Source: Minisyncoccota bacterium
GTDB taxonomy: Bacteria; Patescibacteriota; Minisyncoccia; Phycocordibacterales; UBA1006
Assembly: GCA_021209525.1 (NCBI GenBank)
Contig: JAJOIF010000009.1
Span: forward strand, 22,285 to 86,284
Length of the DNA: 64,000 bases
Reading direction: 5' to 3'
Under the pieces are notes generated by a model that searched no databases, was not told the origin of the DNA, and saw only the letters and a program-made list of their open reading frames with translations. Every line of letters starts with the position of its first letter. Position 1 is the first letter of the stretch. The translations under genes were made by a program, and so were the position numbers. Positions 9,160-10,078 of this stretch are shown here, in pieces.

Positions 9160-9164
9160 TCCAT

Positions 9165-9615
9165 CATTATTTCACATGAAACATGATGTAATGATAAAAT
9201 TATCCAATCCAGTTAATGATCGCGCGCACTACAAAGAATATAACAATTCCAAGCCACCATTCAATAAATATTGAAGCGAGTAATGATACGATTATAAGTA
9301 TGAACCAATGCATATTACGAATTATTATACCAAAATTAATATTTAAAAACAACATTTTAAGAGAAAATGGTTACATGTGAAACTTTTTATACTGAATAAA
9401 CCAAAAAGCATAGGCATATGAATTCATAAAAAATAAAGCATTTATATGTCACACATGAAACAAAAAGGTTTTTATTATCGTATTTTATGTATTCATACGT
9501 AAAAAATAATTGAATATGTTTCATGTGGAACATATTCAGTATTAAAAAATGTTTAATAACTGATAAGACTCATTTCACATGAAACATTCATCGGTGCGTT
9601 TCACGTGAAACGTGT
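9165..9615. repeat. Cluster of at least six copies of the palindromic motif TTTCAC(A/G)TGAAAC in a non-coding island
   Basis: Copies lie at about 9170, 9372, 9450, 9527, 9573 and 9597. The last, GTTTCACGTGAAAC, is a perfect 14-mer palindrome. Spacing is irregular. Confidence 0.6.
9200..9313 (-). CDS. Possible small hydrophobic peptide (37 aa), below the ORF-track threshold
   Basis: The minus-strand ORF translates as MHWFILIIVSLLASIFIEWWLGIVIFFVVRAIINWIG. The only support is the open frame and its hydrophobicity. Confidence 0.2.
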   Translation of the reverse strand: MHWFILIIVSLLASIFIEWWLGIVIFFVVRAIINWIG

Positions 9616-9696
9616 AGATGTGTGAATATCAAATAAACGACGTATTTTTGTCAAAAACCCTTATTTTTCAACGTTTTTAGAGAAAATGTCCTTATT

Positions 9697-9912
9697 AAAA
9701 AGACAAATGAGAGCGTCTTTTATGCACCTTATTCACCTAGTTATCCACAGTTTTTACTGATTTTAGCTTTATTTTATTATTTCTTTAAAAGACATGCTTA
9801 TTTGAACCATCTCTGAAATGTCTTTTATAAAAATGTACCTTTCTCTGTGATTTTTGAGATGTTTTGAAAAAACTGATCTGAGTATTTTACGGTGATTATA
9901 TGTAAAAGACAT
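9697..9912. repeat. AAAAGACAT / ATGTCTTTT inverted motif pairs plus a perfect DnaA-box-like TTATCCACA (9741-9749)
   Basis: Motif positions are 9697-9703/9715-9721, 9787-9795/9818-9826 and 9904-9912. The 17-mer AATGTCTTTTATAAAAA at 9817-9833 recurs identically at 40451-40467. Confidence 0.55.
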
Positions 9913-9947
9913 TGAGTTAAAAATCTATTTTGCTCCATCAGCCCTCA

Positions 9948-10033
9948 CACGGACCCTTCCTCGGCTCTTTCGCATTCGCTTCAGAGCCTGCGGGCTTCGC
10001 GGGTCCTTGGTTCAATTCTCCTGCCGCACGCAA
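9948..10033 (+). ncRNA. Candidate structured RNA element, copy 2 (homologue of 7380-7468)
   Basis: It matches copy 1 at about 85% identity, with compensatory changes in two helices. It is followed by a conserved hairpin and then the antisense tRNA-Gly(GCC). Confidence 0.4.
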
Positions 10034-10040
10034 ACAAAAT

Positions 10041-10063
10041 CTCTAAAAGCGCTGCTTTTAGAG
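10041..10063. terminator. Palindromic 10-bp hairpin CTCTAAAAGC-GCT-GCTTTTAGAG between the GC-rich element and tRNA-Gly(GCC)
   Basis: It is a perfect palindrome flanked by A and T tracts. The same hairpin follows tRNA-Gly(TCC). Confidence 0.5.
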
Positions 10064-10078
10064 ATAATGTTTGTTTTG

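What the first reader, a model, noticed from the sequence alone, without database searches (positions are those of the whole stretch)
9160..10078. A 1.3-kb non-coding island between tRNA genes: TTTCAC(A/G)TGAAAC palindromes, AAAAGACAT/ATGTCTTTT inverted pairs and a perfect DnaA-type box
Coding density elsewhere in the window is about 90%, yet 9160-10500 has no convincing ORF. The island holds at least six copies of a 12-14-nt palindrome with a CACGTG/CACATG core at irregular spacing. It also holds three inverted pairs of AAAAGACAT with 10-21-nt spacers, a TTATCCACA box at 9741-9749, and copy 2 of the structured RNA. Three tRNA genes bound it. Possible explanations are a chromosomal or integrated-element replication origin (iterons plus a DnaA box), a dense regulatory region for an unknown dimeric DNA-binding protein, or a decayed mobile element.
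Basis: seen in the sequence. Interest (0 to 1): 0.6.

Follow-up and report, generated by a model that had tools for sequence, protein, structure and literature searches.

The report
parS centromere array beside DnaA boxes
The "mystery palindromes" match the standard bacterial chromosome-partition site parS, here multiplied into a small array next to three conserved DnaA boxes in a candidate-phyla-radiation bacterium; the island is most likely the chromosome's centromere-like site, not its replication origin, which lies about 63 kb away beside dnaA.

Summary
Seven 16-mers within 3 mismatches of the parS consensus TGTTTCACGTGAAACA lie in 8953-9612 and nowhere else in 64 kb (0.54 expected). They are followed by three tandem DnaA-box-like 9-mers (9720, 9729 and the perfect 9741) and AT-rich DNA.

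The layout yraN | parS | about 110 nt | three boxes | tRNA-Gly(gcc) | cca recurs in 10 reference genomes and 51 metagenome contigs of related Patescibacteria. The parS core is invariant in the ten genomes aligned.

The origin reading does not hold for this genome. Sister-strain contigs place jag-yidC-yidD-rnpA-rpmH, a 374-nt spacer with two perfect DnaA boxes, and dnaA-dnaN about 63.4 kb to the right. GC skew does not change sign at the island. In a syntenic relative with both loci on one contig, the skew switches at rpmH|dnaA, not at the module.

In a sister group with a single parS, however, the skew switch and the divergence of gene orientation fall exactly at the module. There it may be, or have been, an origin.

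No ParB gene was found in any DNA I could reach.

Verdict: a known kind of element (parS array), new for this phylum, with an unresolved comparative question about origin position.

The parts
8953..8983 (.). Two overlapping parS-like 16-mers (TGTTTCACGTGAAACT, 1 mismatch; TGTTTCATATGAAACT, 3 mismatches) inside the yraN coding sequence. On the minus strand they encode VSYET-VSRET in a variable loop.
8770..9159 (-). yraN (UPF0102 family, PF02021). In relatives a parS lies within about 20 nt of its start codon (62 nt in L004).
9168..9183 (.). parS-like site TATTTCACATGAAACA (2 mismatches), 9 nt upstream of the yraN start. This is the position of the conserved parS in relatives.
9370..9383 (.). 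Degenerate copy GTTACATGTGAAAC; only the right half-site is intact.
9447..9462 (.). parS-like site TGTCACACATGAAACA (3 mismatches).
9517..9532 (.). parS-like site TGTTTCATGTGGAACA (2 mismatches).
9571..9586 (.). parS-like site CATTTCACATGAAACA (3 mismatches).
9597..9612 (.). parS with a perfect 14-bp core (CGTTTCACGTGAAACG). It aligns with the invariant parS of the conserved module.
9613..9719 (.). AT-rich spacer between parS and the DnaA boxes. Its length (100-130 nt) is conserved; its sequence only loosely. It contains AAAAGAC-N10-GTCTTTT at 9698-9721.
9720..9749 (+). Three tandem DnaA-box-like 9-mers in one orientation: TTATGCACC (9720), TTATTCACC (9729) and the perfect TTATCCACA (9741). 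Box 1 to box 3 is 21 bp. Family consensus: GTCYNTTATNCMC-N5-6-CACAG-N2-TTATCCMCA.
9750..9925 (.). AT-rich stretch (68-78% A+T) with three copies of the intergenic motif AAAAGACAT/ATGTCTTTT (9787, 9818, 9904). NAN trios directly follow box 3, which is only a weak test.
9932..10077 (-). GC-rich structured trailer of tRNA-Gly(gcc). It holds an inverted copy of the tRNA 3' end and a bidirectional terminator hairpin (10039-10065). It is 80% identical to the trailer of tRNA-Gly(tcc) at 7366-7512. It is not part of the parS/DnaA module.
10078..10149 (-). tRNA-Gly(gcc). It is on the plus strand in most relatives and inverted here.
10268..10340 (-). tRNA-Arg(tcg).
10935..12416 (+). CCA-adding enzyme gene, the conserved right-hand neighbour of the module.
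37543..37966 (.). Second cluster of the parS half-site RTGAAAC(A): 7 copies and no full palindrome, in an 800-bp non-coding region. It is possibly related, because Giovannonibacteria locus L022 has four such half-sites next to its two full parS.

Best explanation
The island is a chromosomal centromere-like region, not the active replication origin of this genome.

It is an array of parS sites: two with an intact 14-bp core and five weaker copies, spread over 8953-9612. ParB dimers would nucleate on these sites, inferred by analogy with characterised ParABS systems in which ParB then spreads as a CTP-dependent clamp. That would mark the origin-proximal part of the chromosome for segregation and condensin loading.

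The array grew from a single ancestral parS that sits just upstream of yraN throughout this group of Patescibacteria. Extra copies were added in the spacer and even written into a variable loop of YraN.

Directly downstream lies a conserved 30-bp element of three same-orientation DnaA boxes followed by AT-rich DNA. It most likely binds DnaA. In this genome it is not the active origin, which is the canonical rpmH|dnaA spacer about 63.4 kb to the right.

What is shown:
- sequence identity to the parS consensus;
- clustering of the sites;
- conservation of the module;
- the position of dnaA;
- the absence of a skew switch at the island.

What is inferred:
- ParB and DnaA binding;
- the role of the DnaA-box triple, which could be a secondary or former origin, or a DnaA-titrating or regulatory site.
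For: - parS identity and clustering. Seven matches to TGTTTCACGTGAAACA (<=3 mismatches) lie within 660 bp and none elsewhere in 64 kb; 0.54 are expected. The sequence is the published consensus parS (bioRxiv 10.1101/724823).
- Conservation of parS. GTTTCACGTGAAAC is invariant at the orthologous position in 10 reference genomes. The exact module pattern occurs in 51 metagenome contigs.
- Link to yraN. parS lies within about 20 nt of the yraN start in 10 relatives (62 nt in L004). This includes a distant Giovannonibacteria locus where yraN has moved away from cca.
- Conservation of the boxes. The triple DnaA-box element, including unconstrained positions of box 2 (CACAG), is conserved in 39 unique sequences.
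- Position of dnaA. In sister-strain contigs the order is jag, yidC, yidD, rnpA, rpmH (minus strand), then a 374-nt AT-rich spacer with two perfect TTATCCACA 20 bp apart, then dnaA and dnaN. dnaA starts at window-equivalent about 73,176. There is no parS there.
- Skew in this genome. The strand-independent third-position GC skew is about -0.10 on both sides of the island. Intergenic DNA to the right is -0.10, n=1501. This fits an origin to the right of the window.
- Same-contig test. On contig ctg83332 (cca 60% identical, same gene order, 10 parS-like sites) the module shows no switch (-0.13 / -0.09). rpmH|dnaA, 46.7 kb away, shows a clear one (-0.12 to +0.16). L118 shows an even sharper switch at dnaA (-0.22 to +0.25).
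Against: - No ParB or ParA gene was found in the 64-kb window, in the next 18 kb, or in about 1.3 Mb of related loci. The whole genome could not be read, so the reader of the sites is unidentified.
- Five of the seven copies carry 2-3 mismatches, often in the central CG, and may bind weakly.
- Close to dnaA in this organism the skew shows no clear switch either: +0.045 versus +0.015 in L114 orientation, with small n. The origin assignment therefore rests on synteny, DnaA boxes, the window-wide skew sign and relatives.
- With an origin at dnaA, about 80% of the genes between the island and dnaA are head-on to replication. That is unusual and would fit an origin at the island better.
- In relatives with a single parS, the module coincides with an origin-type skew switch and with divergence of gene orientation.
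Confidence: 0.7

Rival explanations
1. The island is the active chromosomal replication origin of this genome. DnaA would bind the three tandem boxes and unwind the adjacent AT-rich DNA, parS would be an integral part of oriC, and the boxes in front of dnaA would serve only for dnaA autoregulation.
For: - The tandem same-orientation DnaA boxes (one perfect) next to 68-78% A+T DNA are conserved in 39 unique sequences.
- Five NAN trios directly follow box 3.
- Genes diverge from the island: the nearest 4.5 kb on the left are on the minus strand and about 82% on the right are on the plus strand.
- Pooled over 47 related loci, the strand-independent GC3 skew flips from -0.12 to +0.10 within +/-2 kb of the module. 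In those loci no dnaA or dnaN lies within the held flanks.
Against: - In this genome the skew has the same sign (-0.10) on both sides.
- A canonical rpmH|dnaA-dnaN locus with two perfect boxes lies 63 kb away.
- In ctg83332, which shares this genome's layout and parS amplification, the switch is at dnaA and not at the module.
- Only one of the three boxes is perfect here, and box 2 departs from the family's conserved CACAG.
- The trio test is weak in AT-rich DNA, and the spacing (0-2 nt) is not the usual 10-13 nt of the basal unwinding system (PMC8287927).
Confidence: 0.15
2. The palindromes are operators for a dimeric protein other than ParB. It could be a transcription factor, or the neighbouring PD-(D/E)xK-type YraN protein itself. 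It would control yraN and the tRNA genes, and the resemblance to parS would be coincidental or secondary.
For: - The site sits within about 20 nt of the yraN start in 10 relatives (62 nt in L004), even where yraN has moved. That is the position of an operator.
- No ParB gene was seen in any held DNA.
- Arrays of single half-sites (window 37543-37966; L022) are not typical of ParB.
Against: - A 14-16 bp identity to the universal parS consensus, kept invariant over deep divergence (cca about 50% identical), is most simply explained by ParB.
- An autoregulatory operator does not explain copies embedded in cca, in a PspC-like gene and inside yraN itself.
- ParB could not be excluded, because only about 82 kb of the genome was readable.
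Confidence: 0.1
3. The island is a decayed mobile or integrated element, or the iteron-type origin of such an element, inserted at tRNA genes.
For: - tRNA genes flank the region.
- Copies of the tRNA-Gly 3' end, direct and inverted, bound the GC-rich trailers.
- A tyrosine recombinase gene lies at 15877-16821.
- Contigs of many MAGs break in the tRNA-Gly/tRNA-Arg interval.
Against: - The parS/DnaA-box module is at the same chromosomal position, between the same housekeeping genes, in more than 40 related genomes and contigs.
- There is no Rep, relaxase or phage gene.
- The repeats are palindromes at irregular spacing, not direct iterons.
- Only the trailer at 9932-10077 looks inserted.
Confidence: 0.03

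Closest known systems
Chromosomal parS sites of the ParABS/SMC system (Bacillus subtilis Spo0J sites, Caulobacter crescentus parS; multi-site arrays in Corynebacterium glutamicum, Myxococcus xanthus, Streptomyces)
   Same: The 16-bp palindrome is the same TGTTTCAC-GTGAAACA. Several copies are clustered in one region. The array lies within tens of kb of the dnaA origin locus. Multi-copy arrays and sites inside coding sequences are known from other phyla (my own knowledge, not tested here).
   Different: The array is very compact: 7 copies in 660 bp. Most copies are degenerate in the central CG. It is not next to parAB, and no ParB was found in the reachable DNA. It is tightly linked to the yraN start and to a conserved DnaA-box triple. 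It is accompanied elsewhere by arrays of single half-sites. I found no description of parS in Patescibacteria in the searchable literature.
Bacterial oriC with the basal unwinding system (tandem DnaA boxes + DnaA-trios + AT-rich DNA; PMC8287927)
   Same: Tandem same-orientation DnaA boxes 0-3 bp apart, one of them perfect. NAN trios and AT-rich DNA lie on the 3' side of TTATCCACA. In sister lineages the module coincides with an origin-type skew switch.
   Different: There is no skew switch here or in the syntenic relative L124. dnaA is 63 kb away with its own box cluster. The box-to-trio spacer is 0-2 nt instead of about 10-13. There are only three boxes.
Non-origin DnaA-box clusters (B. subtilis DBCs; E. 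coli datA and DARS)
   Same: A short conserved cluster of DnaA boxes outside the (inferred) origin, within the origin-proximal part of the chromosome.
   Different: This is analogy only. There is no sequence homology, no evidence of DnaA titration or reactivation, and those loci are not paired with parS (my own knowledge).
Noc binding sites (NBS, TATTTCCCGGGAAATA)
   Same: Related palindrome family. Two window copies (9168, 9571) carry the NBS-like A at core position 1 (for the parS/NBS differences).
   Different: Position 6 stays parS-like (A). NBS are scattered along the chromosome away from the terminus, and Noc is, to my knowledge, restricted to Firmicutes.

Membership tests
Chromosomal parS (ParABS centromere) | 16-bp palindrome matching TGTTTCACGTGAAACA | tested here: met
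   Seven matches with <=3 mismatches. The site at 8953 has 1 mismatch; the site at 9597 has a perfect 14-bp core. Consensus taken from 10.1101/724823.
Chromosomal parS (ParABS centromere) | Few sites per genome, clustered rather than dispersed | tested here: met
   All 7 sites lie in 8953-9612, with none in the other 63 kb; 0.54 are expected by chance. There are none in 20 kb around dnaA.
Chromosomal parS (ParABS centromere) | Conservation of the site at an orthologous position in relatives | tested here: met
   The 14-bp core is invariant in 10 genomes. The module is present in 51 metagenome contigs. parS lies within about 20 nt of the yraN start in 10 relatives (62 nt in L004).
Chromosomal parS (ParABS centromere) | Location in the origin-proximal part of the chromosome | tested here: met
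   The array is 63.4 kb from the rpmH|dnaA-dnaN locus, and 46.7 kb from it in ctg83332, where the skew switch is at dnaA. Related near-complete contigs are 705-775 kb, so this is about 6-9% of a genome of that size. The size of this genome is unknown.
Chromosomal parS (ParABS centromere) | Cognate ParB (and usually ParA) encoded in the genome | not testable with these tools
   None was found in the window, in the 18 kb beyond it, or in the related loci (Pfam; motif and phmmer). Only about 82 kb of this genome could be read.
Chromosomal parS (ParABS centromere) | ParB nucleation and spreading at the sites | not testable with these tools
   Needs ChIP-seq, DAP-seq or EMSA.
Chromosomal replication origin (oriC) | Cluster of DnaA boxes | tested here: inconclusive
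   Three tandem boxes, one perfect and two with 2 mismatches, conserved in relatives. There are only three, and box density with <=2 mismatches is not above the rest of the window.
Chromosomal replication origin (oriC) | AT-rich unwinding element and DnaA-trios next to the boxes | tested here: inconclusive
   DNA 3' of box 3 is 68-78% A+T, with five NAN trios at a spacer of 1 nt. The whole island is AT-rich, and the spacing differs from the usual 10-13 nt.
Chromosomal replication origin (oriC) | GC-skew sign change (negative to positive) at the locus | tested here: not met
   Window: strand-independent GC3 skew is about -0.10 on both sides. Syntenic relative L124: -0.13 / -0.09. The feature is met only in the single-parS sister group: -0.12 to +0.10 pooled, and per-locus cca-side skew.
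Chromosomal replication origin (oriC) | Adjacency to dnaA/dnaN or rpmH (usual, not obligatory) | tested here: not met
   dnaA starts at window-equivalent about 73,176, preceded by rpmH-rnpA-yidD-yidC-jag and a 374-nt spacer with two perfect boxes.
Iteron-type plasmid or phage origin | Directly repeated iterons at regular spacing with an adjacent rep gene | tested here: not met
   The repeats are palindromes at irregular spacing. No Rep or other mobile-element gene is next to them. The position is chromosomal and conserved.
Known RNA families (for the GC-rich element 9932-10077) | Match to an Rfam covariance model | tested here: not met
   Only the four tRNAs pass the gathering threshold. Nothing credible appears at E<=5.

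The most novel reading that the evidence does not exclude
The yraN-cca module (one parS plus three tandem DnaA boxes) is a genuine dnaA-distal replication origin in one group of Patescibacteria. The origin has switched between this module and the canonical rpmH|dnaA site in sister lineages that keep both DnaA-box loci 47-63 kb apart.

In lineages such as this one, where the module no longer fires, parS has been amplified into a 7-10-copy array, and the block between the two sites is left with about 80% head-on genes.

That would be a natural example of origin relocation between two pre-existing DnaA-binding sites, with the centromere staying behind.
Probability: 0.3. Interest if true: 0.65.

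Novelty: new member of a known kind. Interest (0 to 1): 0.42.

Why it matters
- It assigns a concrete, testable identity (ParB-type parS) to a conspicuous non-coding island in a phylum where chromosome segregation and replication are almost unstudied. I found no description of parS there in the searchable literature.
- It gives a compact landmark for orienting and joining fragmented assemblies of these bacteria. Two sister assemblies break inside the array.
- The comparative pattern raises a sharper question that complete genomes or coverage data could answer directly. The same parS/DnaA-box module sits at the skew switch in some lineages and 47-63 kb from it in others, and parS copy number differs between the two. 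Can bacterial origins hop between DnaA-box sites, and does the centromere follow?

Tried and rejected
- Rfam at gathering and relaxed thresholds: only tRNAs, nothing for the island or the GC-rich trailer.
- Sigma-70 promoter and terminator scan of 8700-10600: promoter-like hits are not above shuffles; the only terminator is the hairpin at 10039-10065.
- Small ORFs in the island (for example 9200-9355, 51 aa) and neighbouring unknown proteins: no Pfam or NCBIfam hits.
- Helical phasing of the AAAAGAC/GTCTTTT pairs: core spacers of 10, 26 and 33 nt show no regularity, so I dropped the idea.
- DnaA-box density (<=2 mismatches per 300 bp): the island is not an outlier. Only the tight conserved triple is notable.
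- Extending the window leftwards by protein look-up: only short contigs, or no record.
- Fetching DnaA through its 51-residue N-terminus: no candidates, one protein search lost. Solved by using YidC instead.
- Looking for the cca gene of the 746-kb contig (L118 genome) to test the module in a genome with a sharp dnaA switch: it was not among the 120 hits listed. The 163-kb contig ctg83332 served instead.
- Complete genome CP064973.1 (L126): the module is present at about 279 kb of 705 kb with weak local skew, but I could not read where dnaA lies in that record because look-ups were exhausted.
- Literature searches for parS or ParB in the CPR, Patescibacteria, Parcubacteria and Saccharibacteria returned nothing relevant.
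- Sign-convention check on an actinobacterial chromosome end (L036): skew too weak to be useful.
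Full report
**What is there.** The window comes from a small-genome Patescibacteria (CPR) bacterium. Exact copies of its proteins are named "Candidatus Pacebacteria bacterium" at NCBI. The nearest reference genomes are labelled Paceibacterota, Parcubacteria or Nomurabacteria. Between yraN (8770-9159, minus strand, PF02021) and the CCA-adding enzyme gene (10935-12416) there is no credible protein gene. The only genes are tRNA-Gly(gcc) at 10078-10149 and tRNA-Arg(tcg) at 10268-10340. An independent assembly (L002) carries the same island.

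**The palindromes are parS.** TTTCAYRTGAAA occurs five times in the window, all between 8955 and 9599. Searched with the 16-mer TGTTTCACGTGAAACA, the window has seven matches with up to 3 mismatches: 8953, 8968, 9168, 9447, 9517, 9571 and 9597. All lie within 660 bp. Chance predicts 0.54, and no shuffle out of 100 reaches 7. That 16-mer is the consensus chromosomal parS used in ParB biochemistry and crystallography (bioRxiv 10.1101/724823; further papers).

Two copies keep an intact 14-bp core (8953, 9597). The others mostly carry CA/TG or TA in place of the central CG. The two leftmost copies lie inside yraN, where on the minus strand they read VSYET-VSRET in a loop that varies between orthologues. 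The 7-nt half-site RTGAAAC occurs 45 times in the window. Thirteen copies are in 8954-9605 and seven in a second non-coding region at 37543-37959, which has no full palindrome.

**The DnaA box is one of three.** TTATCCACA at 9741 is preceded by TTATGCACC (9720) and TTATTCACC (9729), in the same orientation and 0-3 bp apart. AT-rich DNA follows.

**Conservation.** I fetched loci through the CCA enzyme and aligned ten reference genomes. They share one architecture:
- yraN on the minus strand;
- GTTTCACGTGAAAC, invariant in all ten, within about 20 nt of the yraN start (62 nt in L004);
- 100-130 nt of AT-rich spacer;
- GTCYNTTATNCMC-N5-6-CACAG-N2-TTATCCMCA, with box 1 to box 3 always 21 bp;
- then tRNA-Gly(gcc), a variable insert, tRNA-Arg(tcg) and cca.

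An exact pattern for the module hit 51 further metagenome contigs. In 39 unique sequences, positions the pattern left free are also conserved: the GTC before box 1, CACAG of box 2 and the T-run after box 3. In a distant Giovannonibacteria locus yraN has moved away from cca, yet it still has a perfect parS at its start codon, a second parS 105 nt upstream and four GTGAAACA half-sites between them. Most relatives have one or two parS-like sites. This window has 7, L004 has 11, L124 has 10, L080 has 9 and L095 has 8.

**Is it the origin? This genome.** No dnaA, dnaN, parA or parB was found among the window's ORFs. I walked right from the last complete gene of the window, using contigs of the same or nearly identical strains. 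The order there is jag, yidC, yidD, rnpA and rpmH on the minus strand, then a 374-nt AT-rich spacer, then dnaA and dnaN on the plus strand. The spacer holds two perfect TTATCCACA 20 bp apart plus weaker boxes. dnaA starts at window-equivalent about 73,176, which is 63.4 kb from the island's box. No parS-like site lies there.

I split third-codon-position GC skew into a part that follows gene orientation and a strand-independent part. The strand-independent part is about -0.10 on both sides of the island: left of it, in 10-37 kb and in 38-64 kb. Intergenic DNA on the right is also C-rich on the plus strand (-0.10, n=1501). So there is no switch at the island, and the sign fits an origin to the right of the window. 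Within 9 kb on either side of dnaA in this organism the strand-independent skew is near zero. The switch is therefore not directly visible there.

**Same-contig test in a relative.** Contig ctg83332 (163 kb) carries both loci in the same order, with cca 60% and YidC 47% identical to the window's. It has the inverted tRNA-Gly(gcc) as here and 10 parS-like sites. The module is 46.7 kb from dnaA. The strand-independent skew is -0.13 / -0.09 across the module, so there is no switch. Across rpmH|dnaA it is -0.12 / +0.16, a clear origin-type switch. Another relative, L118 (746-kb contig), switches even more sharply at dnaA, from -0.22 to +0.25. I conclude that in this type of genome the origin is at dnaA and the island is an origin-proximal parS array.

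**The sister group behaves differently.** I pooled 47 unique module-bearing loci. The strand-independent GC3 skew is -0.12 on the yraN side and +0.10 on the cca side, and it flips within the 2-kb bins next to the module. Coding strand also diverges: 63% minus on the left and 79% plus on the right. None of these loci contains a dnaA or dnaN homologue in the held flanks, as shown by phmmer with the CPR DnaA and DnaN.

Split by locus, the pattern is bimodal. Loci with a strongly positive cca side (+0.15 to +0.5) all have a single strong parS. All loci with two or more strong parS have a cca-side skew of +0.04 or less (27 loci, Spearman rho -0.56, p=0.003, not corrected for phylogeny).

A recent inversion cannot turn one type into the other, because the relation between gene strand and skew differs between them. 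Either the origin sits at the module in the single-parS group, or something I cannot see from 10-kb flanks is going on. With an origin at dnaA, about 80% of the genes between the island and dnaA are head-on to replication. That also suggests that replication once ran the other way. This is the basis of the novel reading, and it is inference, not demonstration.

**Other elements of the finding.**
- *AAAAGACAT/ATGTCTTTT.* There is one exact inverted pair (9787/9818), one shorter pair (9698/9715) and one unpaired copy (9904). Nine of the motif's ten copies in the window are intergenic, at five loci, usually as TATAAAAGACAT. Relatives have TAAAAGCCAGT twice between parS and the boxes. It is a general intergenic signal, perhaps promoter-associated, and its function is unresolved.
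- *"Structured RNA copy 2" (9932-10077).* This is the trailer of tRNA-Gly(gcc). It has a bidirectional terminator hairpin, an inverted copy of the tRNA 3' end and a GC-rich stem-loop. It is 80% identical to the trailer of tRNA-Gly(tcc), folds well on both strands (z about -4.3) and matches no Rfam family. Relatives carry unrelated GC-rich inserts at the same spot, bounded by copies of the tRNA 3' end. It looks like an insertion hotspot rather than part of the module.

**Limits.** The reader of the sites, ParB, was not found. Only about 82 kb of this genome could be read, and no ParB or ParA lies near parS or dnaA in any related locus. Binding of ParB and DnaA is inferred from sequence alone. 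The origin assignment rests on synteny, DnaA boxes, skew sign and relatives, not on replication data.

**Verdict.** Its main interpretation, origin with iterons, is not supported for this genome. The element is a parS centromere array next to a conserved DnaA-box triple. That is a known kind of element, newly placed in this phylum, with an open comparative question about origin position.

Noticed in passing
window 7247-7585 and 9925-10151: Both tRNA-Gly genes are followed by a terminator hairpin, an inverted copy of the tRNA 3' end and a GC-rich stem-loop. The two are 80% identical over 220 nt. The tcc copy ends in a further direct copy of the tRNA 3' end. There is no Rfam match. Relatives have unrelated inserts at the same place, bounded by copies of the tRNA 3' end, which suggests an insertion hotspot or footprints of tRNA-targeting elements.
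   Followed up: partly
window 37258-38064: An 800-bp non-coding region holds seven copies of the parS half-site RTGAAAC(A), no full palindrome, a 25-nt inverted repeat (37887-37911 / 37954-37978) and three ATGTCTTT motifs. Giovannonibacteria locus L022:16745-16868 has four such half-sites between two full parS.
   Followed up: partly
window 40382-40870: A non-coding region upstream of a dksA-like gene (40871-41221) has TTATCCCTA (40518) and a perfect TTATCCACA (40539) 21 bp apart, the same offset as box 1 to box 3 of the module. AAAAGACA lies between them, and the plus strand is strongly C-rich (skew -0.32).
   Followed up: no
window 401-454, 18255-18308, 33235-33288 and inverted 7137-7175: A shared ~55-nt upstream element (GTTTACTTTCAGG-N4-AATTCAAG, then TTGACA) precedes four genes whose products have no credible Pfam domain (542-1069, 18326-19252, 33344-35491, 5412-7040). 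This may be a common regulator site or regulon.
   Followed up: no
window ~8936 and ~9613: Contigs of two sister assemblies (JAJOJH010000013.1 and JAJOJW010000020.1) begin inside the parS array. Many MAG contigs of relatives end 60-140 nt upstream of cca. The region appears to break short-read assemblies.
   Followed up: partly
L004:9890-11551; L124:9021-9322 and 10702-10843; window 8953-8983: parS-like sites are embedded in coding sequences: cca, a PspC-like ORF tail, and yraN. This occurs in the lineages with amplified arrays.
   Followed up: partly
window 10500-64000 plus L109:10001-17849: About 80% of coding DNA between the island and dnaA is on the strand that is head-on to forks coming from the dnaA origin. 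This includes the ribosomal-protein cluster at about 26.9-30.5 kb. The plus strand is nevertheless C-rich, as expected for a lagging strand.
   Followed up: partly
window 62910-64000; L109:10001-17849; L118, L120, L122, L125: A type-IV-secretion-like block (PrgI, TraC-like, VirB4/TraG-like ATPase, NlpC/P60, PG_binding) lies directly next to jag-yidC and is conserved in position and orientation across relatives.
   Followed up: no
L126 (CP064973.1, record 267911-289395): A complete 705-kb Nomurabacteria genome carries the module with six parS-like sites, one of them perfect, at about 279 kb of the record. Where dnaA lies in that record was not read.
   Followed up: no
L036, L038, L042, L043, L045 (Actinobacteria): In actinobacterial relatives of the CCA enzyme, cca lies about 8-10 kb from parA-parB and two near-perfect parS. 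Linkage of cca to the partition locus is therefore not confined to Patescibacteria.
   Followed up: no
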